A stretch of 48,336 nucleotides of DNA from a virus (taxonomy: Duplodnaviria > Heunggongvirae > Uroviricota > Caudoviricetes). The notes under the pieces are model-generated. The model made no database searches. It saw only the letters and a list, made by a program, of their open reading frames with translations, and had not been told where the DNA came from. A program made the translations under genes and the position numbers. Of the stretch, positions 5,415 to 48,336 are shown piece by piece; the stretch's first letter is position 1; the number at the start of each line of letters is the position of its first letter. The stretch lies in IMG/VR virus record IMGVR_UViG_2874968258_000013, one strand, 5' to 3'.

Positions 5415-5444
5415 ATCATCCACCCAATTGGTAATGACTCCAAC

Positions 5445-6860: not shown

Positions 6861-6946
6861 ATTCTTAATCCAAGAACATACTCCCTACCTATAGCAAAAT
6901 CACTTTTTTAACAAAAGAATAACGTATTTAGGTAATCATTACGAAT

Positions 6947-10611: not shown

Positions 10612-10709
10612 ATTCACCCCACAAAAAAGCCCGCCTGAACCGGCGGGCTGTCATAACACTGTGTTACCTGGCTAATCAGAATTTATAACCGACACCCACG
10701 ATGAAACCG

Positions 10710-17166: not shown

Positions 17167-19724
17167 CGTCCACCTCCGGAGAACAGGCCACCATCACGCA
17201 TCTGTGTCTGAATTTCATCACGGGCACCCTTGCGGGCCATGTCATACACGGCCTTCATCATCTGTGGACCTGGCAGACCATTCGTACCGTCGTTCTGAAT
17301 CACCACGTGATTGTTCTGATTAAAATTAATGCCTTCAGCCCGCCGCATCTGCGCCGGACTTCCGGCACCGCCCACATAACCACCTTCCGCATAGCCGCGC
17401 ATCAGCCGGTAGAGATTCCCCACGCCAATCCGGCTGGTTGCCTCCTTCGTGAAGACAAATTCACCACGGTGAACAATCCCCGCTGGCTCATATTTGCCGC
17501 CGGTTCCCGTAAATCCCCCGGTTGCAAAATGGAATTTCGCCGCAGCGGCCTGAATGGCTGTACCACCTGACGCGGATGCGCCGCCACCAACAGCCCCGCC
17601 AATGGCGCTGCCGATACTCCCGACAATCCCCACCATTGCCTGCTTAAGCAGAATTTCTGTCATCATGGACAGCACGGAGCGGGTGAAGCTGCGCCAGTTC
17701 TGTTCACTGCCGGTCAGCATCGCCGCCATATTCTGTGCAATACCATCAAAGGTCTGCGTGGCTGCACTTTTAACCTGTGACATACTGTCCGTGGCGCTCT
17801 CTTCCCACTCACTCCAGCCGGACTTCAGGCCTGCCATCCAGCTCCCGCGAAGCTGGTCTTCAGCCGCCCAGGTCTTTTTCTGCTCTGACATGACGTTATT
17901 CAGCGCCAGAGGATTATCGCCATACTGTTCCTTCAGGCGCTGTTCCGTGGCTTCCCGCGCTGCCTGCCGGTCAGTCAGCCCCCGGTTTTTCGCATCAATG
18001 GCTGCCCGTTTTGCCCGTTGCTGCTGTGCGAATTTATCCGCCTGCTGCGCCAGCGCATTCAGGTGCTCCTGATACGTAACCTTGTCACCAAGTGCAGCCA
18101 GCTGGCGTTTGTACTCCAGCGTCTCGTCTTTATGCGCCAGCAGGGATTTCTCCTGTGCGGACAGCTGGCGACGTTGTGCCGCCTCCTCCAGTACCGCGAA
18201 CTGACTTTCTGCCTTCCACAAATCCCGGCGCTGCTGGCTGATTTTCTCATTCGCTCCGGCATGCTTCTCCAGCGTCCGGAGTTCTGCCTGAAGCGTCAGC
18301 AGGGCCGCATGAGCACTGTCTTCCTGACGATCGCCCGCATACACCTTCACGCCGGACTGTTTCGGCTTTTTCAGCGTCGCTTCATAATCCTTTTTCGCCG
18401 CCGCCATCAGCGTGTTGTAATCTGCCTGCAGGATTTTTCCGTCTTTCAGTGCCTTGTTCAGTTCTTCCTGACGGGCGGTATATTTCTCCAGCGGCGTCTG
18501 CAGCCGTTCGTAAGCCTTCTGCGCCTCTTCGGTATATTTCAGCCGTGACGCTTCGGTATCGCTCTGCTGCTGCGCATTTTTGTCCTGTTGACGCTGTTGA
18601 TCTACCCTCTTTTGGGCTGCATCCCGCTCCAGGCGTTTTTTTTCACGATCATCCCAGTAACGCGCCCGTGCTTCATCGTTAACGAAATAATCATCCTTGC
18701 GCAGATTCCAGATGTCGTCTGCTTTCTTAAACGCAGCCTCTGCCTTAATCAGCATCTCCTGCGCGGTATCAGGACGACCAATATCCAGCACCGCATCCCA
18801 CATGGATTTGAATGCACGTGCAGTCCTGTCTGCCCAGGTCTCCAGCGTGCCCATGTTCTCTTTCAGGCGGCGGGTCTGGTCATCAAACCCTTTCGTTGCG
18901 GCCTCGTTCGCCGCCTGCAATGCCCCGGCTTCATCGCCGGAACGCTGCAACTGAGCAACATACGCAATCTGCTCCGCCGTCACGTTATGGAACTGGCGTG
19001 CCATCGCCGTCAGCCCCGACGTCGGGTCTGTGGTCAGCTTCCCGAAGGCTTCAGCGACCTTGTCCACCTCCACGCCGGATGCAGAGGAGAAACGCGCCAC
19101 ACTCTGGCTGATGGACGCAATCTGAGCCTCACCGCTTACCCCCGCCTTAACCAGTGCGCTGAGTGACTCGCTGGTCTGGTTAAACGTCAGCCCTGCCGCC
19201 TGCCCGGCTCTGGACAGGACCAGCATACGATCTGCCGTCAGTCCCGCCTGATTACCGGAAAGGACCAGCGTTTTGTTGAAATCGGACAGGGTTGAGTTGC
19301 CCTGATACCAGGCATACGCCAGCGCACCGGTCGCCACCGCCAGCGAGGTGGCCCCCACCATCGGCAGGGTGATCGCGCCGGCAAGCCCCCTGAACATGGG
19401 GATCATCCCGCCGAAGGAGTCCTTAACCTGACCACCCTGTTGCAGCAGGATCAGCCAGGGATTCTGCCCCCCTGCAAGCTGCGTGGCCACGTCGGTGAAC
19501 TGTGCAGGCAGCATACGCATGGCGGCTTTATACTGCCCGACGGAAATCCCCGCTTTCTGTGCAGCCAGCGCCTGTCGGCTCAGCGACTGTTCAACGACTG
19601 CCGCTGTTTTTTTCGCATCACTTTCCGTACCGGAAAAATGACGCCTGACTCTGGCCATCTGCTCGTCAAATCTGGCCGCATCCAGACTCAAATCAACGAC
19701 CAGATCGCCTACCGGTTCAGCCAT
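17163..19724 (-). CDS. H: tail tape measure protein H
   Basis: 853 aa, coiled-coil-rich, lambda H-like. Confidence 0.92.
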   Translation of the reverse strand: MAEPVGDLVVDLSLDAARFDEQMARVRRHFSGTESDAKKTAAVVEQSLSRQALAAQKAGISVGQYKAAMRMLPAQFTDVATQLAGGQNPWLILLQQGGQVKDSFGGMIPMFRGLAGAITLPMVGATSLAVATGALAYAWYQGNSTLSDFNKTLVLSGNQAGLTADRMLVLSRAGQAAGLTFNQTSESLSALVKAGVSGEAQIASISQSVARFSSASGVEVDKVAEAFGKLTTDPTSGLTAMARQFHNVTAEQIAYVAQLQRSGDEAGALQAANEAATKGFDDQTRRLKENMGTLETWADRTARAFKSMWDAVLDIGRPDTAQEMLIKAEAAFKKADDIWNLRKDDYFVNDEARARYWDDREKKRLERDAAQKRVDQQRQQDKNAQQQSDTEASRLKYTEEAQKAYERLQTPLEKYTARQEELNKALKDGKILQADYNTLMAAAKKDYEATLKKPKQSGVKVYAGDRQEDSAHAALLTLQAELRTLEKHAGANEKISQQRRDLWKAESQFAVLEEAAQRRQLSAQEKSLLAHKDETLEYKRQLAALGDKVTYQEHLNALAQQADKFAQQQRAKRAAIDAKNRGLTDRQAAREATEQRLKEQYGDNPLALNNVMSEQKKTWAAEDQLRGSWMAGLKSGWSEWEESATDSMSQVKSAATQTFDGIAQNMAAMLTGSEQNWRSFTRSVLSMMTEILLKQAMVGIVGSIGSAIGGAVGGGASASGGTAIQAAAAKFHFATGGFTGTGGKYEPAGIVHRGEFVFTKEATSRIGVGNLYRLMRGYAEGGYVGGAGSPAQMRRAEGINFNQNNHVVIQNDGTNGLPGPQMMKAVYDMARKGARDEIQTQMRDGGLFSGGGR

Positions 19725-25828: not shown

Positions 25829-25848
<20 letters not shown>
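24529..25848 (-). CDS. C: head maturation protease/scaffold C (with nested Nu3 scaffold frame)
   Basis: 439 aa lambda C-like; codon at the conserved start position is GTG here. Confidence 0.85.
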
Positions 25849-29529
<3,681 letters not shown>

Positions 29530-29555
<26 letters not shown>

Positions 29556-31344: not shown

Positions 31345-32250
31345 CTATATTTCCAGACATCTGTTATCACTTAACCCATTACAAGCCCGCTGCCGCAGAT
31401 ATTCCCGTGGCGAGCGATAACCCAGCGCACTATGCGGATGCCATTCGTTATAATGCTCGAACGCCTCTGCAAGGTTCTTTGCTGCCGTTAACCCGTCTGG
31501 TTTGGGCATGATACTGATGTAGTCACGCTTTATCGTTTTCACGAAGCTCTCTGCTATTCCGTTACTCTCCGGACTCCGCACCGCCGTGTTCTTCGGTTCA
31601 AGTCCCAACATCCGGGCGAACTGGCGTGTTTCATTAGCCCGGTAGCATGAACCATTATCCGTCAGCCACTCCACTGGAGACGACGGAAGATCGTTGCCGA
31701 AGCGGCGTTCCACCGCTCCCAGCATGACGTCCTGTACTGTTTCACTGTTGAAGCCGCCGGTAGTCACCGCCCAGTGCAGTGCCTCACGATCACAGCAGTC
31801 CAGCGCGAACGTGACACGCAGTCTCTCTCCGTTATCACAGCAGAACTCGAACCCGTCAGAGCACCATCGCTGATTGCTTTCTTTCACGGCCACTCTGCCT
31901 GTATGTGCCCGTTTCGATGGCGGTACAGCAGGTTTTCGCTCAAGCAACAGCGCATTCTGGCGCATGATCCGGTAAACACGTTTGGCATTGATCGCAGGCA
32001 TACCATCAAGTTCTGCCTGTCTGCGAAGCAGCGCCCATACCCGACGATAACCATACGTGGGCAGCTCTCCGATAACATGGTGTATACGGAGAAGCACATC
32101 CGTATCATCAGTGTGACGACTGCGGCGGCCATCCATCCAGTCATCGGTTCGTCTGAGAATGACGTGCAACTGCGCACGCGACACCCGGAGACAACGGCTG
32201 ACTAAGCTTACTCCCCATCCCCGGGCAATAAGGGCGCGTGCGCTATCCAC
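31345..32250 (-). CDS. insD: IS2 transposase OrfB (InsD)
   Basis: 301 aa DDE transposase, overlaps insC in -1 frame. Confidence 0.92.
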
Positions 32251-32618
32251 TTTTTTGCCCGTCCATATTCAACGGCTTCTTTGAGGAGTTCATTTTCCAT
32301 CGTTTTCTTGCCGAGCAGGCGCTGGAGTTCTTTAATCTGCTTCATGGCGGCAGCAAGTTCAGAGGCAGGAACAACCTGTTCTCCGGCGGCGACAGCAGTA
32401 AGACTTCCTTCCTGGTATTGCTTACGCCAGAGAAATAACTGGCTGGCTGCTACACCATGTTGCCGGGCAACGAGGGAGACCGTCATCCCCGGTTCAAAGC
32501 TCTGCTGAACAATTGCGATCTTTTCCTGTGTGGTACGCCGTCTGCGTTTCTCCGGCCCTAAGACATCAATCATCTGTACTCCAATGACTAGTCTAAAAAC
32601 TAGTATTAAGACTATCAC
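32208..32618 (-). CDS. insC: IS2 transposase OrfA (InsC)
   Basis: 136 aa [24 protein letters not shown]... Confidence 0.92.
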
Positions 32619-33089: not shown

Positions 33090-33347
33090 CTACTTCGCTT
33101 TTGCTTCCGCTCGCTTACGCCGGCGCTCTTCTTTCCTCTCGGCTTTTGCCATGTCCATGAATGCCTGCATGATCGAGTTCCGCATCATGTAGCTAACAAA
33201 GTGATGATTGACACAGCCGTTGAGGCGCAGCTGCTCGCCAAACTCATCCACCGAGGCCAATGCTTCCATCATGCCCTTCTCGCCTTTCATGAACTCTGAG
33301 AAGTCGCGCCCCGCTCTGGAGGCGCATTCAATAACATGATCACTCAT
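33090..33347 (-). CDS. hypothetical protein translationally coupled to the KilA-N gene
   Basis: 85 aa, basic C-terminus; ATGA stop/start overlap with upstream gene. Confidence 0.45.
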   Translation of the reverse strand: MSDHVIECASRAGRDFSEFMKGEKGMMEALASVDEFGEQLRLNGCVNHHFVSYMMRNSIMQAFMDMAKAERKEERRRKRAEAKAK

Positions 33348-33841
33348 CCCGGAAGCCCGGGGATCGTAATCTGCAGCTGGTTAGCCAGGGAGTTAATCTC
33401 AGCGACCAACACTGGCTTCGTATAGCGCCATGCTGCCAGCCCTTGTCCGCAGAAGCTCGCCATGTCTTTCTTCTGGTCAAATTCATGACATTTCATGTTG
33501 AGCTGCGCACTTAAGCTGTTGCGATGCTGAAGTTCTCCGGTGAAGTAGTCATCGAGGACTTTATAGGCCGCGTACTTGAACCCGGGGTTTAACCAAGCCG
33601 CATAATCGTAAGCAACAAACTTCCCGCCATATGTTCCACCGTGTACACCGCGCTCAGTAAAAACCACAGATTCGTGGTTTTTCTCCAGCTCGGCTAAGAA
33701 CTCTTTGGTCTGCTTGTTTCGCAGGTAGTGGTAAGGCGATTCAGATTCACTTTTACCACTGGCTTTCCACATATCAGTGAGGCAGATCATGCCATCTTCA
33801 CCGATACGAATTGGTTGATTGAAGAGGGTTAATGATTTCAT
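33344..33841 (-). CDS. KilA-N domain protein
   Basis: 165 aa; IRIGEDGMICLTDMWKASGK...TKEFLAEL pattern typical of KilA-N. Confidence 0.6.
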   Translation of the reverse strand: MKSLTLFNQPIRIGEDGMICLTDMWKASGKSESESPYHYLRNKQTKEFLAELEKNHESVVFTERGVHGGTYGGKFVAYDYAAWLNPGFKYAAYKVLDDYFTGELQHRNSLSAQLNMKCHEFDQKKDMASFCGQGLAAWRYTKPVLVAEINSLANQLQITIPGLPG

Positions 33842-34042
33842 AGCGTGTACCTACTCTTTGAAATGAACCTTTGCCGCACAGGAAACCAGCCCACCGAGGC
33901 TCGCCAGCACTAACTGGTATCCTCAAAGGCCCATTCCAAAGGGGCAGGTTCGGTGTAAAAAACATGCGTTGCGGTACGCATTTATTGCAAAAAGCCCCGC
34001 ATCGCGAGGCTCATTAAATGGACTTTGTGATTTGCAAAAAAA

Positions 34043-34501
34043 TTATTTCAGGCATTGCGTCCTGATGTATTCCTGCAGGTAGTTAACCTGCGCGGTTATC
34101 TTGTCGATTCCACTTCGGAGACGGTAATAATTGAGTTCAGCATCTGCTGTAAGTCCTGGGCTTTCTCCATCGCCCATGCCGCTGGCTCCGGTCGTTGACT
34201 TTGCACAGGTGGCGGCGACTTGCAGGCGCTTACGCCCAGCAGAAACATCAGCACGGAGACTTTCGATAGTCGCGTTAGCATCAGCAAGCTCCTTTATGTA
34301 TCTTGCGTCGAGTTCTGCTACATCACGTTGACGCTTCCGCATGTCAGCGATGGTGGCGTTCGCCTTCTCCAGTTCACTGGCCTTGTTATCGCGCTGCTCT
34401 TTGTAGGCGATTGCGTTATCACGGTAATGATTAACAGCCAATGACAGGCAGACGATGATGCAGATAACCAGAGCGGAGATAATCGCGGTTACTCTGCTCA
34501 T
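34043..34501 (-). CDS. Rz: i-spanin Rz
   Basis: 152 aa from [20 protein letters not shown]; N-terminal TM plus coiled coil; overlaps R stop. Confidence 0.88.
34096..34287 (-). CDS. Rz1: o-spanin Rz1 (embedded in Rz, +1 frame)
   Basis: 63-aa ORF with lipobox LLGVSAC and Pro-rich region nested inside Rz. Confidence 0.75.
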
Positions 34502-34995
34502 TGTTTCCCCCACAAACAGACTTCACGCTCAATCTCACGGCGAGTCATCAGTCCTTTCCATTGATTACCGCCAGCGTATGTCCAGCGCCGTAGCTGATCA
34601 CATGCGCCTTTAATATCACCCTGGTTTATTTTGCGAAGAAGCGTCGATGTTCTGAAATTGCCAGCACCCACGTTGTAGACGAACGAGTAAAGAGCGCAGC
34701 GCGTTGTTTCCGGTATATCGACTTTGATGTACGGGTTAATTTGTCTGGCGACAGTGGCAAGGTCTTTATTCAGGAGGGCTTTGCACTCTGCTTCGGTATA
34801 CGTTTTACCGGGAATGATGTCTTTTCCTGTATGCCCGTAACATACAGTCCATACACCAACTATGTCTTTGTAAGGATTATGTCTCACACCTTCCAGACCA
34901 TCGTTACCACCTGGGCCAGTGATTAACACAGATGCTATAGCAATAGCCCCGCCACCAATAGCAGCAGCAACAGCTTTTCGTAATGATGGAGGCAT
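34498..34995 (-). CDS. R: SAR endolysin (phage lysozyme, phage-21 R-like)
   Basis: 165 aa; N-terminal Gly/Ala-rich signal-anchor-release segment followed by lysozyme domain. Confidence 0.85.
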
Positions 34996-35210
34996 TATCC
35001 ACCTCTCGCAGCCTTGCGCTTATCTTCTTTAATCTTGAAATAAAGGTTTGTCAGGTACGTCAGCAGGCCAAATACCAGGCTACCCAGCACTCCAATTGCC
35101 GCCCACTGTGAGGGCGTGACTTTATCTAGCAGCTGTAAAAACCAGTACCCGGCACTACCTGCTGAGGTGCCATAGGCGACACCCGTTGTTAACTTATCCA
35201 TGGATTTCAT
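34995..35210 (-). CDS. S: pinholin (phage-21 S21-like holin)
   Basis: 71 aa [26 protein letters not shown]..., two TM segments, basic C-terminus. Confidence 0.85.
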
Positions 35211-35321
35211 AACCCCACCTCGCAGACAAAGCGGGTGTAAATTGAGGGAATACTACGAAACGTAACAGACTCGGAGTCAGTGAATAACTCAGGTATTGGG
35301 TTATCAGCTAATATCGAGACT

Positions 35322-35345
35322 CAAAAAATGGAAAAACCCGCTCGA
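35322..35345 (-). terminator. tR'-like rho-independent terminator upstream of S
   Basis: minus-strand AAACCCGCCGTCGAGCGGGTTTTT hairpin about 115 bp upstream of S start. Confidence 0.55.
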
Positions 35346-35455
35346 CGGCGGGTTTAAGCTGTGTGACGAAGTAACCACTCTTAACAGCATAACCAATTTT
35401 GGTGATGCTGCCAACTTACTGATTTAGTGTATGATGGTGTTTTTGAGGTGCTCCA

Positions 35456-35731
35456 GTGGCTTCTGTTTCTATCAGCTGTCCCTCCTGTTCAGCTACTGAC
35501 GGGGTGGTGCGTAACGGCAAAAGCACTGCCGGACATCAGCGCTATCTCTGCTCTCACTGCCGTAAAACATGGCAACTGCAGTTCACTTACACCGCTTCTC
35601 AACCCGGTACGCACCAGAAAATCATTGATATGGCCATGAATGGCGTTGGATGCCGGGCAACTGCACGCATTATGGGCGTTGGCCTCAACACGATTTTACG
35701 TCACTTAAAAAACTCAGGCCGCAGTCGGTAA
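35456..35731 (+). CDS. insA: IS1 InsA
   Basis: 91-aa ORF within IS1. Confidence 0.92.
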
Positions 35732-36153
35732 CCTCGCGCATACAGCCGGGCAGTGACGTCATCGTCTGCGCGGAAATGGACGAACAGTGGGGCTATGTCG
35801 GGGCTAAATCGCGCCAGCGCTGGCTGTTTTACGCGTATGACAGTCTCCGGAAGACGGTTGTTGCGCACGTATTCGGTGAACGCACTATGGCGACGCTGGG
35901 GCGTCTTATGAGCCTGCTGTCACCCTTTGACGTGGTGATATGGATGACGGATGGCTGGCCGCTGTATGAATCCCGCCTGAAGGGAAAGCTGCACGTAATC
36001 AGCAAGCGATATACGCAGCGAATTGAGCGGCATAACCTGAATCTGAGGCAGCACCTGGCACGGCTGGGACGGAAGTCGCTGTCGTTCTCAAAATCGGTGG
36101 AGCTGCATGACAAAGTCATCGGGCATTATCTGAACATAAAACACTATCAATAA
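35650..36153 (+). CDS. insB: IS1 InsB
   Basis: 167-aa ORF within IS1. Confidence 0.9.
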
Positions 36154-36558
36154 GTTGGAGTCATTACCCCAATTTTTTACGTACGTAAACCACTAAATGA
36201 TATTTGCGAGAATGCTACCGAGTATTGAAAACACCACTACAAATACATAAGCAAATCCCAACAAATAACCAACAAATAATTTCCAGTGTTATTTTTAGCC
36301 GGTTTAAATTGAACCTTCAAATTATAGAGCACTTATAAATAACAGCCGTTAATATAAATTGGCTAATAGATTTATTTTTATTCAGCCAAGAGCCATGAAT
36401 AGGATTCGATAGAAAAAAGTTCAGATAAAAATAGAGATCTACTTCACAAATCAAACGAGAAACCAAAACTTACATCTTGAAATAATCACATTGATTAGAT
36501 GAATATTTATCGCGCAGTGACATCATTTTTTAATAATAGTTCAAAAAAAGGGCTCACG

Positions 36559-37641
36559 ATGAAAAAATTAACAGTGGCAATTTCTGCTGTAGCTGCATCA
36601 GTACTGATGGCGATGTCTGCTCAGGCAGCTGAAATTTATAATAAAGACAGTAACAAGCTGGATCTGTACGGGAAAGTTAATGCTAAGCACTACTTCTCCT
36701 CTAATGATGCAGATGATGGTGATACTACTTATGCCCGTCTTGGCTTCAAAGGTGAAACCCAAATCAACGATCAACTGACTGGTTTCGGTCAGTGGGAATA
36801 TGAATTCAAAGGCAACCGCGCTGAATCTCAAGGTTCCTCCAAAGATAAAACCCGTCTTGCCTTCGCTGGCCTGAAATTCGGTGACTACGGCTCCATCGAT
36901 TACGGCCGTAACTACGGTGTAGCATACGACATCGGTGCGTGGACTGACGTCCTGCCAGAATTCGGTGGTGACACTTGGACTCAAACAGATGTGTTCATGA
37001 CTGGTCGCACCACTGGTGTTGCAACTTATCGTAACAACGACTTCTTTGGTCTGGTTGATGGTCTGAACTTTGCTGCTCAGTATCAGGGTAAAAATGACCG
37101 CACTGACGTAACTGAAGCTAATGGTGATGGTTTCGGTTTCTCCACTACTTATGAGTATGAAGGATTCGGTGTAGGTGCAACCTATGCTAAATCTGACCGC
37201 ACTAATAATCAGGTTATCTACGGTAACAACAGCCTGAATGCATCTGGTCAAAATGCTGAAGTATGGGCAGCTGGTCTGAAATATGATGCGAACAACATCT
37301 ATCTGGCTACCACCTATTCTGAAACCCAGAACATGACTGTTTTTGGTAATAACCATATTGCCAACAAAGCACAAAACTTCGAAGTAGTTGCACAATATCA
37401 GTTCGACTTCGGTCTGCGTCCGTCCGTTGCTTACCTGCAATCTAAAGGAAAAGACTTGGGTGCGTGGGGTGATCAGGACCTGGTTGAATATATTGATGTA
37501 GGTGCAACCTATTACTTCAACAAAAATATGTCCACTTTTGTTGATTACAAAATCAACCTGATTGATAAGAGCGATTTCACGAAAGCATCTGGCGTTGCTA
37601 CCGATGATATCGTTGCTGTAGGTATGGTTTACCAGTTCTAA
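36559..37641 (+). CDS. nmpC: prophage-encoded general porin (NmpC/Lc-like, OmpC family)
   Basis: 360 aa from [23 protein letters not shown]; 16-strand porin signature ending ...VAVGMVYQF; apparently intact coding frame. Confidence 0.88.
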
Positions 37642-37770
37642 TTTGATTACTAAAAGATATGTTGCGGGAGGCTTTGCCTCCCCAACATATAAGTGGCTCC
37701 CTCAAGCCACTTCCTTTAGGAGCACAACCTTGCTTCTAACTATATAAACCTTCTGTTATATATTACCCTT

Positions 37771-37803
37771 TATTTTTGGGGGCGTTGCAACGCCCCATTT
37801 TTA
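37771..37803. terminator. bidirectional rho-independent terminator between convergent nmpC and Q
   Basis: TTTTT-GGGGCGTTGCAACGCCCC-ATTTTT palindrome. Confidence 0.65.
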
Positions 37804-37829
37804 ATAATTTTTAGTAAACAATTGGCATA

Positions 37830-38213
37830 TTAATTAGAGTTATTAACAACGATATCCATCTCTAACCGGATATCTAATGCCATTAACATCCCTTCAATTA
37901 TGCCCTCAGCCTTCTGTAACCTTTTCCCGATATAACCATCAGAGCAGCAATGCTTACCTGCCAGTGACATGAATGTCATACCGACTACATAATAATCTAC
38001 TAATAAATCGTGCAAATCGCTGTTGTTCTTTTTCAGACGGGCCATGTACCCGCAAATAATCATCGCGTCATCGTCACAACATTGCGGGCGAGATTTTACT
38101 TTTGAAGTAATTAATCCCTTAAAACCGGCGGCAATGGACGACCAGGTCACATCTTCATGATTATTAGCCGCCCACGCTCCCCAACGCTCAAGAACCATCT
38201 GAATATCACGCAT
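37830..38213 (-). CDS. quuD: late gene antiterminator Q (DLP12 QuuD-like)
   Basis: 127 aa from [24 protein letters not shown]... Confidence 0.85.
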
Positions 38214-38298
38214 CAACTTACTCCACAAAAATCAGACCAGAACGCCAATTACAAGCAAAAATCAACAAAACAGTATTAGTTGATTGTTATCTCTGACT

Positions 38299-38439
38299 TC
38301 ATACTCCTGCTCCTGTCAGGGTTTTGGCGTAATTCTTCAGTATTCGGTAATCGGTCAAAACAGAACCGGGGAAACGATATAAGCGCAGATGCCCCCAGCG
38401 GTGGCGAAGAAGTTCTGCCATATAAAACTCAAACATCAT
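38299..38439 (-). CDS. ylcG: small protein YlcG
   Basis: 46-aa [49 protein letters not shown] translated by hand; below ORF-track size cutoff. Confidence 0.7.
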
Positions 38440-38798
38440 TCATTCCCCATTTCGGTGATGGTCAGTTCCAGCCTCCCACCTTTGGTAACAGGCATCTTCA
38501 CAACGCGGTAATCAACGACCTGAGCATCATCCAGCCAGAAACCTGCTTTGGTGAGTGCGTCAAAAGCGGCTTTTTGCAGATTATCCAGGTCACGGCGACG
38601 GCGATCCGGCATGTGGCACTCAATACGGATTTTCACTGGCATAGCCAGGCCGATATCCAGCATTGCGTTTTTAATGATTCGGGTGACGTTATCGCGGTAT
38701 GCCTGCCCTTCTGCGCTGATGTGTGTGCGCCCGCGATTATGGCGGTAATAGCGGTTATTGCTCGGAGGCCAGGGTAATGTGATGCTGTAGGTATTCAC
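38436..38798 (-). CDS. rusA: Holliday junction resolvase RusA
   Basis: 120 aa, recalled RusA sequence. Confidence 0.88.
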
Positions 38799-39085
38799 GC
38801 CTTAATAACCCCCTCTTTCAGCCAGATAACCTGCGTTCTCGCCATACCTTCCAGCGCGCATTCTTTTGCATACTCAGCATCGACAAAATATGTGCGGCGG
38901 TCGATTTCGTCGTGACAGGCAGAACATGCAATGGTGGCAATCAGGTCTGGCGGTTTGATACCGGTACCGCACAATCCAGCCAGCCGGATATGTGCCAGTA
39001 CTGACGTTTCAGGATTGCCATTACATACGCCAGGGATTCTTACCTGGCATTCCCGACCACGCGCTGCTTTTCTCAAATCAGCCAT
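38795..39085 (-). CDS. ybcO: YbcO (DUF1364) putative nuclease
   Basis: 96 aa from [20 protein letters not shown]; Cys-rich. Confidence 0.8.
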
Positions 39086-39248
39086 GATTCCTCCTTGCTG
39101 CCAGTCGCAACCATTTTTTATCAACCAGGCTAGCGGTATATCCGAGCAGTGTTGGTATTTCGGATGGCTTCAGCTCAGGCTTACGCTTACGACGATTTGA
39201 TACTCTGTAGATGTGCCCGTTCATGACACGAATAAGCGGTGTAGCCAT
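39078..39248 (-). CDS. ninE: NinE
   Basis: 56-aa [59 protein letters not shown] translated by hand; TAATG overlap with ybcN stop. Confidence 0.75.
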   Translation of the reverse strand: MATPLIRVMNGHIYRVSNRRKRKPELKPSEIPTLLGYTASLVDKKWLRLAARRNHG

Positions 39249-39703
39249 TACGCCTCCTGCTTATCGCGCAGCTGCTGGTATTCACAGCTCTGCGGAATTG
39301 TCAGGTGGCAGCCGATATTCATCGCCCAGGCTTCGACTTTGCACAGGAAGATGTACATCTCGCCGGTTTCCAGCTCTGACGTATGGCGGAGGGATTGGAC
39401 GGTGGTGACCTCGCCGGACACGACATCTACACGGTCTTTGCTTTCGTAGCCGAGATAGGTGTGCTTCATCGCGTCTTTGACCCACTCAGGCGTAGCGAAG
39501 GTCTTGCCGCGGGCGATGAGATATTCGCTGATCTCCGTGTACCACATGTGGCTGAGCGCGTTCTGCGACAGGCTGCGCTTCTCGCGCCACGGCTTAACCT
39601 GCAGGCGTAAGCATTGCCCGGCATCCAGCAATGGCTGAATCTGCTGGCCGATGGCCGCGAAGTTACCGCGATGGAGTTTGATGCCGTCTACTGGCAGAGT
39701 CAT
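39248..39703 (-). CDS. ybcN: YbcN (DLP12-type nin-region protein)
   Basis: 151 aa, recalled YbcN sequence. Confidence 0.82.
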   Translation of the reverse strand: MTLPVDGIKLHRGNFAAIGQQIQPLLDAGQCLRLQVKPWREKRSLSQNALSHMWYTEISEYLIARGKTFATPEWVKDAMKHTYLGYESKDRVDVVSGEVTTVQSLRHTSELETGEMYIFLCKVEAWAMNIGCHLTIPQSCEYQQLRDKQEA

Positions 39704-39967
39704 ACGGCCTCCCTAACGGAAACCGCAGAATGCAGAAAATCGCAGGTGCATTTCTGCATCTGTGACAAGGTGATGAGTTCAGATTGTGGTCGCATTTAAG
39801 TCCCCTTAAATGCGCAGAAGTCACCGGAGTTGTTCAGGCTCCGATGAGAGGATTATGGCGGATTGATTACGATAAATCAAAACTATCTTGAAGCCAAAAC
39901 AGTGATCTTCGCTTTAAAAACCTTGTATACTTTCACCTAATCACAGCCAGAACTATGGATCTAACCA

Positions 39968-40345
39968 ATGACCAACAAAGAAAACAAAGATAAATATATT
40001 AACAAGTTCAAGAAAGAGCTTTCAAAATATATACAACCAACTGCTGGAGTGGACATTCAATTATTTAACTCTAAGGATGGTGGTGGTGTAATTAAAGCCA
40101 CTTTGAATAGAAGTGGAAAAAGAAAATCATCTATTGCTGGTAATTTTACTAAATTAGGTGAGGCAATTACCTCGAGTGGGCAGAGGGTTTTTGGTGGTGA
40201 TCTATCAAATGTGAATTTTTACGGAACAAATACGATTTTTGATGGAGATACAATATTTTTAATTAAATCACCTGATTCAGAGGAGTGGTCATCACAAAAA
40301 GCTTCCAAAGACGTAGAGGGCATCGTATTTGGAGGGAAAAAATGA
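39968..40345 (+). CDS. hypothetical soluble protein (125 aa, Gly/Lys-rich), first gene of a low-GC two-gene cassette
   Basis: AT-rich ORF with no recognisable family; stop overlaps next start (ATGA). Confidence 0.55.
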   Translation: MTNKENKDKYINKFKKELSKYIQPTAGVDIQLFNSKDGGGVIKATLNRSGKRKSSIAGNFTKLGEAITSSGQRVFGGDLSNVNFYGTNTIFDGDTIFLIKSPDSEEWSSQKASKDVEGIVFGGKK

Positions 40346-40770
40346 TTAACATTACTACTAAGGATGGCACTCAAGTCAGTGGTGAAGTAAGAGATCTAGT
40401 AATTCTTCTTGAAACTGATGGAAAAACGGTGTCTGATTATTTGCAGCCAATCCCTCCCAAAAAAGATACACACTGGAGCATGATTTTCATTCCGGTAGCA
40501 ATTTATATACTACTTAATCTTGTATACATTATTGCTCACCCATTATTTCCTGAAAAATATCTAAAAACATCAACATCTATATTTCTATTCATTTCCTTCA
40601 TATTAAGTGCAATAGTAGCATATTTTGTTTTCCATAAGCATAAATCTGCCACTCTATCCATATGCAGCTTAGTGTTCTTAGTGTTAATTGTAGGTGCTAA
40701 CGTAGGGTTTATCAGTTACAGCGACCTAACACAAAAAGCGACGCAAAAATTAGATAGTTTGTCTAAATAA
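40342..40770 (+). CDS. hypothetical small membrane protein (142 aa, soluble N-terminal 45 aa plus 3 predicted TM helices)
   Basis: hydrophobic stretches WSMIFIPVAIYILLNLVYII, SIFLFISFILSAIVAYFVF, LSICSLVFLVLIVGANVGFI; followed by hairpin 40778-40798. Confidence 0.55.
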   Translation: MINITTKDGTQVSGEVRDLVILLETDGKTVSDYLQPIPPKKDTHWSMIFIPVAIYILLNLVYIIAHPLFPEKYLKTSTSIFLFISFILSAIVAYFVFHKHKSATLSICSLVFLVLIVGANVGFISYSDLTQKATQKLDSLSK

Positions 40771-40932
40771 TTATGTTGCCATGCGAAGTATGCATGGCTG
40801 CATGTCTGCCTTCCATTTAAAATGGGCTAAGACCTATAACCCTAAATATTATTCTTTATTATCTTCTTTACCACTTCGGTGATGCTGCCAACTTACTGAT
40901 TTAGTGTATGATGGTGTTTTTGAGGTGCTCCA

Positions 40933-41108
40933 GTGGCTTCTGTTTCTATCAGCTGTCCCTCCTGTTCAGCTACTGACGGGGTGGTGCGTAACGGCAAAAG
41001 CACTGCCGGACATCAGCGCTATCTCTGCTCTCACTGCCGTAAAACATGGCAACTGCAGTTCACTTACACCGCTTCTCAACCCGGTACGCACCAGAAAATC
41101 ATTGATAT
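40933..41108 (+). pseudogene. insA: IS1 insA truncated by IS21 insertion
   Basis: InsA frame diverges after ...QKIID at the IS21 junction. Confidence 0.85.
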
Positions 41109-41209
41109 TGTCAGCGCCAGTGATATAAGACGGTAATTCGCCATTTGGATTGTCCGCTCCACCCAACATGTTGTTTCCTTAAGGTTCTCACACCAGAAAG
41201 GACATCAAC

Positions 41210-43179
<1,970 letters not shown>

Positions 43180-43260
43180 CGAAAGTATTTAGCGGGCATG
43201 AAAATGGCAAATAACGGTCAAACATCGTGGCGTTGACAATATGGCCATGAATGGCGTTGG

Positions 43261-43764
43261 ATGCCGGGCAACTGCACGCATTATGGGCGTTGGCCTCAAC
43301 ACGATTTTACGTCACTTAAAAAACTCAGGCCGCAGTCGGTAACCTCGCGCATACAGCCGGGCAGTGACGTCATCGTCTGCGCGGAAATGGACGAACAGTG
43401 GGGCTATGTCGGGGCTAAATCGCGCCAGCGCTGGCTGTTTTACGCGTATGACAGTCTCCGGAAGACGGTTGTTGCGCACGTATTCGGTGAACGCACTATG
43501 GCGACGCTGGGGCGTCTTATGAGCCTGCTGTCACCCTTTGACGTGGTGATATGGATGACGGATGGCTGGCCGCTGTATGAATCCCGCCTGAAGGGAAAGC
43601 TGCACGTAATCAGCAAGCGATATACGCAGCGAATTGAGCGGCATAACCTGAATCTGAGGCAGCACCTGACACGGCTGGGACGGAAGTCGCTGTCGTTCTC
43701 AAAATCGGTGGAGCTGCATGACAAAGTCATCGGGCATTATCTGAACATAAAACACTATCAATAA
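43261..43764 (+). CDS. insB: IS1 InsB (copy 3)
   Basis: 167-aa ORF in the right part of the split IS1. Confidence 0.85.
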
Positions 43765-43779
43765 GTTGGAGTCATTACC

Positions 43780-43841
43780 CGCTTGCAGTAACGGCGAAAG
43801 GGGCAATGACAGCGCTGCCATGTCGACAAGAACTGGAATAG
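43780..43841 (+). pseudogene. cscK: 3' terminal fragment of fructokinase gene cscK
   Basis: frame (A)LAVTAKGAMTALPCRQELE-stop begins at the IS1 junction; continues the cscK fragment at 48117-48336. Confidence 0.7.
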
Positions 43842-43912
43842 TGAGAAGTAAACGGCGAAGTCGCTCTTATCTCTAAATAGGACGTGAATTTTTTAACGAC
43901 AGGTAGGTAATT

Positions 43913-45160
43913 ATGGCACTGAATATTCCATTCAGAAATGCGTACTATCGTTTTGCATCCAGTTACTCATTTCTCTTTTTTATTTCCTGGTCGCTGTGGT
44001 GGTCGTTATACGCTATTTGGCTGAAAGGACATCTAGGGTTGACAGGGACGGAATTAGGTACACTTTATTCGGTCAACCAGTTTACCAACATTCTATTTAT
44101 GATGTTCTACGGCATCGTTCAGGATAAACTCGGTCTGAAGAAACCGCTCATCTGGTGTATGAGTTTCATCCTGGTCTTGACCGGACCGTTTATGATTTAA
44201 GTTTATGAACCGTTACTGCAAAGCAATTTTTCTGTAGGTCTAATTCTGGGAGCGCTCTTTTTTGGCCTGGGGTATCTGGCGGGATGCGGTTTGCTTGACA
44301 GCTTCACCGAAAAAATGGCGCGAAATTTTCATTTCGAATATGGAACAGCGCGCGCCTGGGGATCTTTTGGCTATGCTATTGGCGCGTTCTTTGCCGGCAT
44401 ATTTTTTAGTATCAGTCCCCATATCAACTTCTGGTTGGTCTCGCTATTTGGCGCTGTATTTATGATGATCAACATGTGTTTTAAAGATAAGGATCACCAG
44501 TGCGTAGCGGCGGATGCGGGAGGGGTAAAAAAAGAGGATTTTATCGCAGTTTTCAAGGATCGAAACTTCTGGGTTTTCGTCATATTTATTGTGGGGACGT
44601 GGTCTTTCTATAACATTTTTGATCAACAACTTTTTCCTGTCTTTTATGCAGGTTTATTCGAATCACACGATGTAGGAACGCGCCTGTATGGTTATCTCAA
44701 CTCATTCCAGGTGGTACTCGAAGCGCTATGCATGGCGATTATTCCTTTCTTTGTGAATCGGGTAGGGCCAAAAAATGCATTACTTATCGGTGTTGTGATT
44801 ATGGCGTTGCGTATCCTTTCCTGCGCGCTGTTCGTTAACCCCTGGATTATTTCATTAGTGAAGCTGTTACATGCCATTGAGGTTCCACTTTGTGTCATAT
44901 CCGTCTTCAAATACAGCGTGGCAAATTTTGATAAGCGCCTGTCGTCGACGATCTTTCTGATTGGTTTTCAAATTGCCAGTTCGCTTGGGATTGTGCTGCT
45001 TTCAACGCCGACTGGGATACTCTTTGACCACACAGGCTACCAGACAGTTTTCTTCGCAATTTCGGGTATTGTCTGCCTAATGTTGCTATTTGGCATTTTC
45101 TTCCTGAGTAAAAAACGCGAGCAAATAGTTATGGAAACGCCTGTACCTTCAGCAATATAG
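43913..45160 (+). pseudogene. cscB: sucrose:H+ symporter CscB with in-frame premature stop (TAA at 44198-44200)
   Basis: two in-frame ORFs (43913-44200, 44291-45160) collinear with recalled CscB; ...LTGPFMI-stop-VYEPLLQ... Confidence 0.8.
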
Positions 45161-45600
45161 ACGTAAACTTTTCCGGTTGTTGTCGATATCTCCCTATCCC
45201 TCAACCGGAAAATAATAATACTAAAGTGCTTAGCCCGGCTAATAATCACCTAATCCAAACGCCTCATTCATGTTCTGGTACAGTCGCTCAAATGTACTTC
45301 AGATGCGCGGTTCGCTGATTTCCAGGACATTGTCGTCATTCAGCGACCTGTCCCGTGTATCACGGTCCTGCGAATTCATCAAGGAATGCATTGCGGAGTG
45401 AAGTATCGAGTCACGCCATATTTCGCTATCAGGATTCTGTGTGATGGTTACATCGCCCGGCCCAGGGCTGTTTAGTCATCAGCGCTTTCTGACAGTGCTG
45501 AGATTTCAACCTGTTGCAGTAAAAATGAGTAGATATAAGGCAAGTGTGCTGCCAAACCCATCTTTTACGGGGTGAAGGTAGATTTCGTTTGAAGGGTATC

Positions 45601-45615
45601 TGGTGTCCCCTGCAG
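45601..45615 (-). repeat. second copy of argW 3' end (att core, 15 bp CTGCAGGGGACACCA), inverted relative to argW
   Basis: exact 15-mer identity with 2635-2649 on the opposite strand. Confidence 0.75.
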
Positions 45616-45688
45616 ACATCTACTTGAGGCGGCAGGGGATTGATTGGAATGCTGTTTTTTAGATTTGAAAAATATTTTACCCGCTATT

Positions 45689-45889
45689 TTACCCATTGGC
45701 GCGGCTTAAGAGCTTATTTTTGAATTCACAATGGTCACGATATAACCATCTTGCTCGTCCGTGGATAACTTTGGCTTTAGGCAGGTCGCCGGACTTAATC
45801 CGGTCATAGATGAAGGTCTTACCGAAGCCAGTATCAGCCATGATGAATTTCAAATCAACCAGTGAATCAGGTTGTAGTTCGTGTTGCAT
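45689..45889 (-). CDS. AlpA-family phage/island transcriptional regulator (small HTH protein)
   Basis: 66 aa; LVDLKFIMADTGFGKTFIYDRIKSGDLPKAKVIHGRARWL resembles AlpA/Phage_AlpA motif. Confidence 0.65.
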   Translation of the reverse strand: MQHELQPDSLVDLKFIMADTGFGKTFIYDRIKSGDLPKAKVIHGRARWLYRDHCEFKNKLLSRANG

Positions 45890-46011
45890 GAGTGCTATCT
45901 CCGAATATGGAATCGAACCTGCAAATCAGGCAATAAAAAGCCGCATTGATGCAGCAATGGTAGGTCTGGATATCTTGAGAAATGAACAGGCCTCATCGAG
46001 TGTGAGGCGGG

Positions 46012-46356
46012 TTAGTCCTTGCGTAGCTCGCTGATTCTTCTGTAAGTCTCTGGTGCTTTGTTCCCGTACGTCTTCATTTCAGACTTCAACAGAGCAACGA
46101 GTGAATCCCATTCGTTGAGGATTCCTTTGAATGCCGGAACGCGCTTTGCAACCTTGTCGAATGAATCTCTGATTTCTGGAATCTGCTCAACAAGTGCAAC
46201 GCATCGCCGAAAGTCTGCTGCGTCATGGGGAGCGCCGAAGTGATGACCATAGATATTCTTTTTCAGGCCACATGCGATTGAGGCAAGAGTTGCGCTACTG
46301 ATGCCGACATCGCCAGTTGATTGCCATTTCAAAACCTTCATAGCCAAATCTGACAT
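46012..46356 (-). CDS. hypothetical protein (114 aa)
   Basis: ORF upstream of and co-oriented with the AlpA-like gene; no recognisable family. Confidence 0.45.
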   Translation of the reverse strand: MSDLAMKVLKWQSTGDVGISSATLASIACGLKKNIYGHHFGAPHDAADFRRCVALVEQIPEIRDSFDKVAKRVPAFKGILNEWDSLVALLKSEMKTYGNKAPETYRRISELRKD

Positions 46357-46597
46357 TTCTTGTCTCCATAAAACAAAACTCGCCGTAGCGAGCTCAGATA
46401 AAAGAAATCCCCGTCAGTGCGAGGATGCTGTTCATTGCTGCTATACACTTTTTTGCTCTCAACGTAAGCGGTAGCCCATTCTGTTGGGTTGGTCAGTTGC
46501 TTTTAGGAAATGCTCTTTACCCCTTAAACGTCGGCTGAAAGAGCTAAAATCCATGCAAAAAATTTACGCAATTTTGTGTATTATTGTGCAGTAAGTA

Positions 46598-47200
46598 ATG
46601 AGCTATTTTCTGTGCAAAAAATGGATGATAAATTTGTCCGGGGCAGGAAAAATTTTATGGGCGCTAAACATGAAAAAAGATTCGTATCCTTATTTGATTT
46701 GCATGACAGTTTCAGGGCTGATCTTTATTTTCCTTTTCTTCTGGTGGCGGGCAGATATCTACAGGGTCACGTTTCTTAATCAGAGTATATCCCACTATTA
46801 CATTCTGTTTAGCATGGGAATAGCTTTTCTGTTATCTCTGTTTTGGGTTAAGAAGGGGATAGTAAAACAAAGCGGCTGGAAGAGTCTGTCAGCATACCTT
46901 AAGGTTTATGCAGGGATATGCATATTTTCTGGATTTTTTCTGATTATACCCCTTACAACACTAACTTATTTTTTGCCTGGAGAGACATCGTCTTATGTTG
47001 CACCGTATCGGTATACTTCCGGTAGTTCAAAAAGTTGTTCTGGAGCTGAGGTGGATGACCCCGATCTACATGAGAATATTCGCATTTGCTATCCGTATGG
47101 CAATTATGAGTACGATAATATTATCTATGTTGAAAAGAAAATTAATACATTAGGTGCGGTAGTGACATATGCACAGACCGCGCGTGATGATACTGAATGA
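46598..47200 (+). CDS. hypothetical membrane protein (3 predicted TM helices plus about 75-aa C-terminal soluble region)
   Basis: AT-rich ORF; true start may be an internal Met (about 46670); divergent from the 114-aa gene. Confidence 0.45.
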   Translation: MSYFLCKKWMINLSGAGKILWALNMKKDSYPYLICMTVSGLIFIFLFFWWRADIYRVTFLNQSISHYYILFSMGIAFLLSLFWVKKGIVKQSGWKSLSAYLKVYAGICIFSGFFLIIPLTTLTYFLPGETSSYVAPYRYTSGSSKSCSGAEVDDPDLHENIRICYPYGNYEYDNIIYVEKKINTLGAVVTYAQTARDDTE

Positions 47201-47363
47201 GATAGTATATAGCGGGCAAGTTTTAGTTAATTTATCGAGGTAATATAATTTACCTCGACTCGTTTATTCTGGTATGAATATTTCGCTTTACGATCGATTT
47301 TTATCTGATGATATCATGCGGTTTTCATATACTGACTTACTGTCTTTTGGTAATGACTCCAAC

Positions 47364-47867
47364 TTATTGATAGTGTTTTATGTTCAGATAATGCCCGATG
47401 ACTTTGTCATGCAGCTCCACCGATTTTGAGAACGACAGCGACTTCCGTCCCAGCCGTGCCAGGTGCTGCCTCAGATTCAGGTTATGCCGCTCAATTCGCT
47501 GCGTATATCGCTTGCTGATTACGTGCAGCTTTCCCTTCAGGCGGGATTCATACAGCGGCCAGCCATCCGTCATCCATATCACCACGTCAAAGGGTGACAG
47601 CAGGCTCATAAGACGCCCCAGCGTCGCCATAGTGCGTTCACCGAATACGTGCGCAACAACCGTCTTCCGGAGACTGTCATACGCGTAAAACAGCCAGCGC
47701 TGGCGCGATTTAGCCCCGACATAGCCCCACTGTTCGTCCATTTCCGCGCAGACGATGACGTCACTGCCCGGCTGTATGCGCGAGGTTACCGACTGCGGCC
47801 TGAGTTTTTTAAGTGACGTAAAATCGTGTTGAGGCCAACGCCCATAATGCGTGCAGTTGCCCGGCAT
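47364..47867 (-). CDS. insB: IS1 InsB
   Basis: 167-aa ORF within IS1. Confidence 0.9.
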
Positions 47868-48061
47868 CCAACGCCATTCATGGCCATATCAATGATTTTC
47901 TGGTGCGTACCGGGTTGAGAAGCGGTGTAAGTGAACTGCAGTTGCCATGTTTTACGGCAGTGAGAGCAGAGATAGCGCTGATGTCCGGCAGTGCTTTTGC
48001 CGTTACGCACCACCCCGTCAGTAGCTGAACAGGAGGGACAGCTGATAGAAACAGAAGCCAC
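47786..48061 (-). CDS. insA: IS1 InsA
   Basis: 91-aa ORF within IS1. Confidence 0.92.
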
Positions 48062-48116
48062 TGGAGCACCTCAAAAACACCATCATACACTAAATCAGTA
48101 AGTTGGCAGCATCACC

Positions 48117-48336
48117 CTGCAAGCGCTCCGCAACGTTGAGCGAGATCGATAATTCGTCGCATTTCTCTCTCATCTGTAGATAATCCCGTAGAGGACAGAC
48201 CTGTGAGTAACCCGGCAACGAACGCATCTCCCGCCCCCGTGCTATCGACACAATTCACAGACATTCCAGCAAAATGGTGAACTTGTCCTCGATAACAGAC
48301 CACCACCCCTTCTGCACCTTTAGTCACCAACAGCAT
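48117..48336 (-). pseudogene. cscK: fructokinase gene cscK truncated by IS1 (5' part continues beyond window end)
   Basis: frame ...MLLVTKGAEGVVVCYRGQ...DLAQRCGALA runs into the IS1 terminal repeat; ribokinase-family GAGD motif. Confidence 0.8.

What the first reader, a model, noticed from the sequence alone, without database searches (positions are those of the whole stretch)
43913..45160. cscB inactivated by an in-frame nonsense codon
The CscB reading frame is continuous except for TAA at 44198-44200, where the recalled protein has Tyr (ATT TAA GTT TAT versus I-Y-V-Y). The rest of the frame is intact, so this is a recent single-base inactivation. Together with the IS1-disrupted cscK it shows decay of the sucrose locus.
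Basis: partly seen in the sequence, partly recalled or inferred. Interest (0 to 1): 0.4.

Follow-up and report, generated by a model that had tools for sequence, protein, structure and literature searches.

The report
Private nonsense mutation in Shigella cscB
The sucrose-permease gene cscB in this Shigella sonnei-type chromosome does carry a real single-base premature stop codon, but it is a late hit, seen in one strain only, in a sucrose locus that insertion sequences had already taken apart, so it is ordinary gene decay of a kind already described for Shigella.

Summary
The cscB frame (43913-45160, +) is 415 codons long and collinear with E. coli cscB. It has no indels and one internal stop, TAA at 44198-44200 (codon 96), made by a C->A change at 44200 (TAC Tyr -> TAA). 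None of 2,643 complete E. coli genomes that carry cscB has it. The window comes from assembly GCA_008727295.1 (CP044191.1), a Shigella sonnei-type chromosome. A sister assembly (CP044151.1) is identical over 20,288 bp except for this one base and encodes the intact 415-aa protein. Twelve related S. sonnei loci all have TAC. An independent assembly of read set SRR3290647 reproduces the TAA, so an assembly error is unlikely. In every relative examined, those with intact cscB included, cscK is already broken by IS4, IS911 and IS1. A 3.6-kb segment flanked by IS1 copies and carrying cscB is inverted, away from the cscK promoter. The nonsense codon is therefore a recent secondary lesion seen in one strain, not the event that ended sucrose use. 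Decay of csc loci in Shigella is published (PMC11251922). Interest is low.

The parts
43913..44200 (+). cscB codons 1-95 plus the premature TAA. The product would contain only the region aligned with LacY helices I-III.
   Evidence: ORF list, translation, LacY alignment placing Y96 at LacY F93
44198..44200 (+). Premature stop TAA in place of TAC (Tyr96), caused by C->A at 44200.
   Evidence: Base-by-base comparison with E. coli O26 cscB and with 12 S. sonnei loci, all of which have C. The TAA is reproduced in the Logan assembly of SRR3290647 (L017).
44201..45160 (+). Rest of the cscB frame (codons 97-415 plus stop). It is intact and holds the counterparts of LacY E126, R144, R302, H322 and E325 (CscB D129, R147, R300, H320, E323). 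A 289-aa TTG-started ORF is callable from 44291.
43780..43842 (+). The last 60 nt plus the stop codon of cscK, cut off by IS1. The first 9 bp (CGCTTGCAG, 43780-43788) are one copy of the IS1 target duplication.
   Evidence: BLAST mapping of reference csc locus positions 6001-7500 onto window 43779-45278
40878..43779 (+). IS1 copy (40878-41108 plus 43239-43779) split by a nested IS21 (41109-43238, istA and istB, 4-bp target duplication ATAT). It lies directly upstream of the cscK 3' end and cscB.
   Evidence: IS1 self-BLAST, junction sequences, NCBIfam IS21 transposase and IstB, 100% identity to annotated IS21 copies in E. coli
43780..47348 (.). A 3,569-bp segment (cscK 3' end, cscB, a torI-like ORF and two small ORFs) inverted relative to the chromosome backbone and bounded by inverted IS1 copies.
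   Evidence: Reference mapping shows the cscK 3' end and cscB forward but the cscK 5' and middle parts, cscA and cscR reversed. Short-read contigs of relatives end at both IS1 boundaries.
47349..48116 (-). Complete 768-bp IS1 in inverted orientation. Its IRL end abuts the cscK middle fragment.
48117..48336 (-). Internal cscK fragment reading leftwards into IS1. Bases 48117-48125 (CTGCAAGCG) are the reverse complement of the 9-bp target copy at 43780-43788.
   Evidence: ORF 48112-48336 (-) with PfkB-type sequence; reference positions 5719-6009 map to window 48406-48116

Best explanation
This is a cscB (sucrose:H+ symporter, LacY-type MFS) pseudogene made by one C->A transversion that turns Tyr96 (TAC) into TAA. 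Translation would stop after 95 residues, which correspond to about the first three of twelve transmembrane helices. That product lacks every residue that corresponds to the sugar-binding and proton-coupling residues of LacY, so it cannot transport. The mutation is real and very young, and it is confined to one S. sonnei-type strain (one closed genome plus one matching read set). It arose in a locus that was already out of action. In the whole clade, cscK is cut by IS4 (at its start), IS911 (in the middle) and IS1 (near the 3' end). The 3.6-kb piece carrying the cscK 3' end and cscB has been inverted between two inverted IS1 copies, so cscB no longer lies downstream of the cscK promoter. Shown: the base change, its uniqueness, its independent support, the IS structure, and the order of events (IS rearrangements shared by all, then A374T/S59N, then Y96*). 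Inferred: cscB was already unexpressed and the nonsense codon was fixed neutrally.
For: The frame and the single stop are confirmed. There are six substitutions and no indel against E. coli O26 cscB. No complete E. coli genome among 2,643 with cscB has the TAA. The exact 95-aa product occurs on one contig only among the indexed assemblies, CP044191.1. The back-mutated 415-aa protein (N59/Y96/T374) exists in S. sonnei-labelled records on 9 contigs, and its precursor (S59/Y96/T374) exists on 22. L003 and L004 differ at one base in 20,288 bp, and that base is window position 44200. L017, assembled from SRR3290647, is 100% identical to window 43754-47374 and includes the TAA. The same IS1::IS21, IS1, IS911 and IS4 context is present around intact cscB in L004 and L010. 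Reference mapping shows the inversion and the inverted 9-bp target copies. No sigma-70-like site lies between the IS1 end and the cscB start. Y96 aligns to LacY F93, and the CscB residues D129, R147, R300, H320 and E323 lie downstream. The literature reports Shigella csc loci as defective, with cscK and cscB hit by IS1, IS3 or IS4, and S. sonnei as 1% sucrose-positive (PMC11251922).
Against: Nothing here measures expression or phenotype. IS1 insB and IS21 istAB lie upstream and read in the same direction as cscB, so low-level read-through transcription into cscB is not excluded, and the stop could then have a small phenotypic effect. I could not inspect raw reads. SRR3290647 may come from the same isolate and may have been used to polish the closed genome. 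That would still be read-level support, but it would not be a second isolate. The organism name was not shown for the record itself; S. sonnei is inferred from the names on identical or near-identical proteins.
Confidence: 0.88

Rival explanations
1. The TAA is a sequencing or assembly error and the strain really has TAC.
For: It is a single-base difference from all relatives, and the exact 95-aa product is on one assembled genome only.
Against: A separate assembly built directly from read set SRR3290647 gives the same TAA within 3,621 bp of perfect identity. The closed genome shows no indels and no other mismatch against its sister over 20 kb, so local assembly quality is high. The change is a substitution outside any homopolymer run, which is not a typical long-read error.
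Confidence: 0.04
2. One reading: cscB was still a working, expressed permease, driven for example by read-through from IS1 or IS21, and this nonsense codon is what inactivated it, possibly under selection against sucrose uptake.
For: The cscB ORF, cscA and cscR are all still intact in the relatives despite the IS damage. The upstream IS genes are co-oriented with cscB. From my own knowledge, not tested here, cscK is dispensable for sucrose growth in E. coli W. PMC11251922 proposes selection against csc in Shigella.
Against: cscB is separated from the cscK promoter by an inversion and 2.9 kb of IS1::IS21. No promoter-like site is found upstream of it. S. sonnei is reported 1% sucrose-positive although more than 99% of genomes carry cscA, so the loss of function predates this strain. 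One SNP in one strain gives no basis for inferring selection.
Confidence: 0.07
3. The stop is bypassed by suppression, read-through, reinitiation or split-permease complementation, so a functional transporter is still made.
For: The downstream 319 codons are intact, and an in-frame TTG ORF of 289 aa exists. From my own knowledge, LacY can be reconstituted from co-expressed complementary fragments.
Against: From established knowledge, UAA is read by both release factors and is the least leaky stop. The only tRNA gene in the window is argW tRNA-Arg(CCT), not a suppressor. The two ORFs would leave residues 96-126 missing, so they are not complementary halves. The gene also lacks its promoter.
Confidence: 0.01

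Closest known systems
E. coli CscB sucrose:H+ symporter (oligosaccharide:H+ symporter family, LacY-like MFS) of the chromosomal csc regulon (cscR, cscA, cscK, cscB at argW/dsd)
   Same: The nucleotide sequence is 99.5% identical (6 differences in 1248 nt) to E. coli O26 cscB. It has the same length and the same neighbours (the cscK 3' end upstream, a torI-like gene downstream), and the conceptual translation gives a full-length TIGR00882/PF01306 match.
   Different: The frame is interrupted at codon 96. Two further amino-acid changes are present (S59N, A374T). The gene is detached from cscK and its promoter by IS1 and an inversion.
Defective csc loci of Shigella species described in PMC11251922 (Front Microbiol 2024)
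   Same: cscA and cscR are intact, while cscK is interrupted by IS1, IS3-family (IS911) and IS4 elements. This matches the pattern that paper reports for Shigella.
   Different: In this S. sonnei clade the cscB ORF itself is normally intact. The Y96* point mutation is an extra lesion seen in one strain only. The paper's text as searched does not mention it, nor the 3.6-kb inversion (I could not see its figures).
IS1-flanked inversions, arising from intramolecular replicative transposition or from recombination between inverted IS1 copies
   Same: Two IS1 copies in inverted orientation bracket the inverted segment, and the 9-bp cscK target is present once at each IS1, in inverted orientation.
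   Different: The outer flanks (TACCACTTC and CTGTCTTTT) do not form a target duplication, so the two routes cannot be told apart. One IS1 later received an IS21 insertion.

Membership tests
CscB / oligosaccharide:H+ symporter MFS (TIGR00882, Pfam PF01306 LacY_symp) | Full-length profile match above the curated cut-off | tested here: met
   The conceptual translation with Y at codon 96 scores 591.3 bits against TIGR00882 (cut-off 220) over residues 9-399, and 558.8 bits against NF007077 (cut-off 429). It matches LacY structures at E=2.8e-63 over residues 11-399.
CscB / oligosaccharide:H+ symporter MFS (TIGR00882, Pfam PF01306 LacY_symp) | Uninterrupted ORF of about 415 aa encoding all 12 transmembrane helices | tested here: not met
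   TAA at codon 96 splits the frame into 95-aa and 289-aa ORFs. It is therefore a pseudogene of this family, not a functional member.
CscB / oligosaccharide:H+ symporter MFS (TIGR00882, Pfam PF01306 LacY_symp) | Counterparts of the LacY sugar-binding and H+-coupling residues (E126, R144, R302, H322, E325) | tested here: met
   The pairwise alignment gives CscB D129, R147, R300, H320 and E323. LacY E269 aligned to V267, so that position is unresolved. All of these residues lie downstream of the stop.
CscB / oligosaccharide:H+ symporter MFS (TIGR00882, Pfam PF01306 LacY_symp) | Sucrose transport activity | not testable with these tools
   This needs uptake or growth assays.
csc regulon (cscR, cscA, cscK, cscB) at the argW/dsd region | cscK and cscB co-transcribed, divergent from cscA, with cscR adjacent | tested here: not met
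   All four genes are recognisable, but cscK is in four pieces (cut by IS4, IS911 and IS1), and the cscK 3' end with cscB is inverted relative to the cscK 5' part, cscA and cscR.
Recent nonsense pseudogene (Shigella-type reductive evolution) | Orthologue intact in the closest relatives, with a single-base difference creating the stop | tested here: met
   Twelve S. sonnei loci and 2,643 E. coli genomes have TAC. The sister assembly differs only at this base in 20,288 bp.
Recent nonsense pseudogene (Shigella-type reductive evolution) | The stop is supported by data independent of the assembly | tested here: met
   The Logan assembly of SRR3290647 (L017) carries the TAA. The raw read pile-up was not inspected.
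IS1-mediated inversion | Inverted IS1 copies at both ends, with the 9-bp target copies in inverted orientation | tested here: met
   The IS1 copies lie at 40878-43779 (+) and 47349-48116 (-). CGCTTGCAG is at 43780-43788 and its reverse complement is at 48117-48125.

The most novel reading that the evidence does not exclude
S. sonnei keeps the cscB, cscA and cscR ORFs intact despite the wrecked operon because read-through from the co-oriented IS1/IS21 upstream gives a low level of CscB, which supports slow or conditional sucrose use. If so, this strain would be a natural cscB knockout with a measurable phenotype, and the stop would be a functional loss, possibly a selected one.
Probability: 0.06. 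Interest if true: 0.3.

Novelty: already known. Interest (0 to 1): 0.08.

Why it matters
It matters little beyond strain-level annotation. It adds one more documented step in the decay of the csc sucrose locus in Shigella, which has already been described. The useful lesson is about method. The visible stop codon is not what disabled the pathway. The comparison with sister genomes shows that the IS insertions and a small inversion came first and the point mutation came last. This strain and its near-identical TAC sister could serve as a natural isogenic pair for anyone who wants to test whether cscB has residual function in S. sonnei.

Tried and rejected
1. I looked for the TAA allele in 5,426 complete E. 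coli genomes with a 61-nt probe and found none.

2. I searched the paper library for the accessions CP044191, CP044151, GCA_008727295 and SRR3290647 and got no hits, so the strain's provenance and sequencing platform remain unknown.

3. I searched for literature on late sucrose fermentation by S. sonnei. The only hit was a methods paper that lists Shigella as a non-fermenter of sucrose.

4. I tried to tell intramolecular IS1 transposition from IS1-IS1 recombination using the outer flanks. They do not form a target duplication, so the question is undecidable.

5. I looked for a suppressor tRNA in the window and found only argW tRNA-Arg(CCT).

6. I looked for a promoter between IS1 and cscB with the consensus scan and found none. 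This is weak negative evidence.

7. I considered split-permease complementation and rejected it, because the two ORFs leave residues 96-126 uncovered.

8. The small ORFs downstream of cscB (66, 114 and 200 aa) gave no NCBIfam match, and I did not pursue them.

Full report
**1. The observation**

Window 43913-45160 on the + strand translates as 415 codons with one internal stop at codon 96 and a normal terminal stop. The local sequence is ATT TAA GTT TAT, with the TAA at 44198-44200. The mechanical ORF list shows the frame broken into a 95-aa ORF (43913-44200) and a 289-aa TTG-started ORF (44291-45160). A megablast of 43780-45200 found the region in 2,649 of 5,426 complete E. coli genomes. The best matches were 99.6% identical and annotated 'oligosaccharide MFS transporter' next to 'aminoimidazole riboside kinase', which is how PGAP labels cscB and cscK.

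An ungapped comparison with the E. coli O26 gene (L001 6134-7381) shows equal length and six substitutions:
- S59N (44088)
- Y96* (44200, TAC->TAA)
- A374T (45032)
- three synonymous changes

**2. Identity of the gene**

With Tyr restored, the protein matches TIGR00882 (oligosaccharide MFS transporter) at 591 bits against a cut-off of 220. It matches lactose permease structures at E=2.8e-63 over residues 11-399. In the alignment to LacY, Y96 falls on LacY F93, in the segment I know as the end of helix III. The counterparts of LacY E126, R144, R302, H322 and E325 (CscB D129, R147, R300, H320, E323) all lie downstream of the stop. A 95-residue product therefore has about three of twelve helices and none of the residues aligned with LacY's catalytic ones.

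**3. Where the window comes from and how widespread the stop is**

An exact-sequence look-up of the 95-aa product found it on one contig only: CP044191.1 of GCA_008727295.1, a 5.04-Mb chromosome. The window matches that record exactly. The record's organism name is not shown by the tools. Identical or near-identical proteins are labelled Shigella sonnei, and the IS load fits that, so I infer S. sonnei.

I back-mutated the protein in silico and looked the variants up:
- N59/Y96/T374 exists (P0033, 9 contigs, labelled S. sonnei).
- S59/Y96/T374 exists (P0032, 22 contigs, labelled S. sonnei).
- S59/Y96/A374 is the widespread E. coli form (P0031, at least 1,000 contigs).
- N59/Y96/A374 is absent from the collection.

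This gives a nested series: A374T, then S59N, then Y96*.

A sister closed genome, CP044151.1 (L004), carries the intact N59/T374 gene. Over the 20,288 bp shared with L003 the two differ at one position and have no indel. That position is window 44200. Across the 3.6-kb segment around cscB, all 12 related S. sonnei loci (L004-L015) have C at 44200. A 61-nt probe found no complete E. coli genome with the TAA.

**4. Is it an error?**

The 289-aa downstream ORF is also on record from a Logan assembly of read set SRR3290647 (L017). That 3,621-bp contig is 100% identical to window 43754-47374, TAA included. So a data set assembled independently of the GenBank record supports the A. I cannot tell whether it comes from the same isolate, and I could not see the reads themselves. 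The closed genome's perfect agreement with its sister over 20 kb, with no indels, also argues against local assembly noise. I put the error hypothesis at about 4%.

**5. The context changes the interpretation**

Mapping the intact E. coli csc locus (L001) onto L003 and the window gives four blocks:
- cscR, cscA and the intergenic promoter region up to cscK codon 6 are in reverse orientation.
- Then comes a 1,426-bp insertion whose 442-aa product carries IS4-type transposase domains (PF13006, PF01609), flanked by a 12-bp repeat of cscK nucleotides 5-16.
- Then come 570 bp of cscK, a 1,249-bp IS911 (3-bp repeat; named from PGAP annotation of 99.8%-identical copies), and 291 bp more of cscK. All of this is reversed, and it ends at window 48116 against the IRL end of a complete IS1 (47349-48116, - strand).
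- The last 62 nt of cscK and all of cscB are in forward orientation, starting at window 43780 against the IRR end of another IS1.

That second IS1 (40878-41108 plus 43239-43779) is itself split by a 2,130-bp IS21 (41109-43238). The IS21 carries istA and istB, has a 4-bp ATAT duplication, and is 100% identical to E. coli IS21 copies.

The 9-bp cscK target CGCTTGCAG is present at 43780-43788 and, reverse-complemented, at 48117-48125. The 3,569-bp segment 43780-47348 is therefore an inversion bounded by inverted IS1 copies. It contains the cscK 3' end, cscB, a torI-like ORF and two small ORFs. The orientation of argW, cscA, cscR and dsdA relative to E. coli shows that this small segment is the flipped one, not the backbone. 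The outer flanks do not form a target duplication, so I cannot say whether the inversion arose by intramolecular replicative IS1 transposition into cscK or by recombination between two IS1 copies.

Either way, cscB no longer lies downstream of the cscK promoter. From my own knowledge (Jahreis et al. 2002, cited in PMC11251922), that promoter drives the cscKB operon. A consensus scan finds no sigma-70-like site between the IS1 end and the cscB start.

**6. Order of events**

The whole IS architecture is present around the intact cscB in L004 and in L010 (GCA_000268005.1, S59/T374 allele). The short-read contigs of the other relatives break at the same two IS1 boundaries. The rearrangements therefore predate S59N, which predates Y96*. 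The stop codon is the most recent lesion, seen in one strain only, in a locus that had already lost cscK and had its permease gene disconnected.

PMC11251922 reports the same general picture: csc loci are defective in nearly all Shigella genomes, cscK and cscB are usually interrupted by IS1, IS3 or IS4, cscA and cscR are often intact, and S. sonnei is 1% sucrose-positive although more than 99% of genomes carry cscA. The phenomenon is published, and only this particular allele is unrecorded.

**7. Mechanism and rivals**

Best explanation (0.88): a neutral, recent nonsense mutation in an already silent gene, which truncates the permease to a non-functional stub of about three helices.

Rivals:
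- Sequencing error (0.04).
- The stop is the functionally inactivating event, because IS-driven read-through still expressed cscB (0.07). This is not excluded, since insB and istAB are co-oriented with cscB, and cscB, cscA and cscR are all otherwise intact in the clade.
- Suppression or split-permease rescue (0.01). UAA is the least leaky stop, there is no suppressor tRNA in the window, and the two ORFs leave residues 96-126 uncovered.

**8. Verdict**

This is ordinary pseudogene decay in a Shigella-type genome, already known as a phenomenon. Interest is about 0.08.

Noticed in passing
window 43780-47348, with IS1 copies at 40878-43779 (+) and 47349-48116 (-): A 3,569-bp segment carrying the cscK 3' end, cscB and a torI-like ORF is inverted relative to the backbone, between inverted IS1 copies. 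The 9-bp cscK target CGCTTGCAG sits at 43780-43788 and, reverse-complemented, at 48117-48125. The outer flanks (TACCACTTC, CTGTCTTTT) do not form a duplication, so transposition and recombination cannot be told apart.
   Followed up: yes
window 41109-43238: A complete IS21 (istA 41210-42382, istB 42379-43179) is nested inside an IS1, with a 4-bp ATAT target duplication. It is 100% identical to IS21 copies on E. coli chromosomes and plasmids.
   Followed up: yes
L003 14496-15744 and 16315-17740 (just beyond the window's right end): cscK is further broken by an IS911 (3-bp repeat) and by a 1,426-bp IS4-type insertion at cscK codons 2-6 (12-bp repeat). cscA and cscR remain intact, and the cscA-side intergenic region is untouched.
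   Followed up: partly
window 5430-6197 (-), 35401-36168 (+), 40878-43779 (+), 47349-48116 (-): There are four IS1 copies in 48 kb, 99.6-100% identical to each other. Two of them lie inside the prophage. This density is typical of Shigella genomes.
   Followed up: partly
window 2575-40800: argW tRNA-Arg(CCT) (2575-2649) is followed by a tyrosine integrase (2775-3968) and a lambda-like prophage: tail fibre 7528-10617, gpJ 11263-14760, tape measure 17163-19724, portal 25829-27430, terminase 27630-29555, lysis genes about 33344-34995, and a porin gene at 36499-37641. It fills the space between argW and the csc remnant. IS1 and an IS3-family element (31345-32618) sit within it, so it is probably defective.
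   Followed up: partly
window 44088 and 45032: There are two further amino-acid changes in cscB relative to the common E. coli allele: S59N (aligned with LacY S56) and A374T. Within the S. sonnei clade examined, the changes seen in cscB are S59N and the stop, with no synonymous change. This is compatible with relaxed constraint, but the numbers are too small to test.
   Followed up: partly
L003 versus L004 (window 33912-48336 and beyond): Gene calls differ between the two sister records: a 46-aa YlcG call is present in one only, a 200-aa versus a 49-aa call is made at window 46598-47200, and the IS911 and IS4 transposase calls differ. Yet the DNA differs at a single base, so these are annotation differences, not sequence differences.
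   Followed up: yes
window 45689-47200: Three small ORFs lie downstream of cscB: 66 aa at 45689-45889 (-), whose position matches a gene annotated torI in E. coli CAU16175, 114 aa at 46012-46356 (-), and 200 aa at 46598-47200 (+). None matches any NCBIfam model. Three of the five variable sites seen in this clade's 3.6-kb segment fall in the 200-aa ORF region (46754, 46936, 47148).
   Followed up: no
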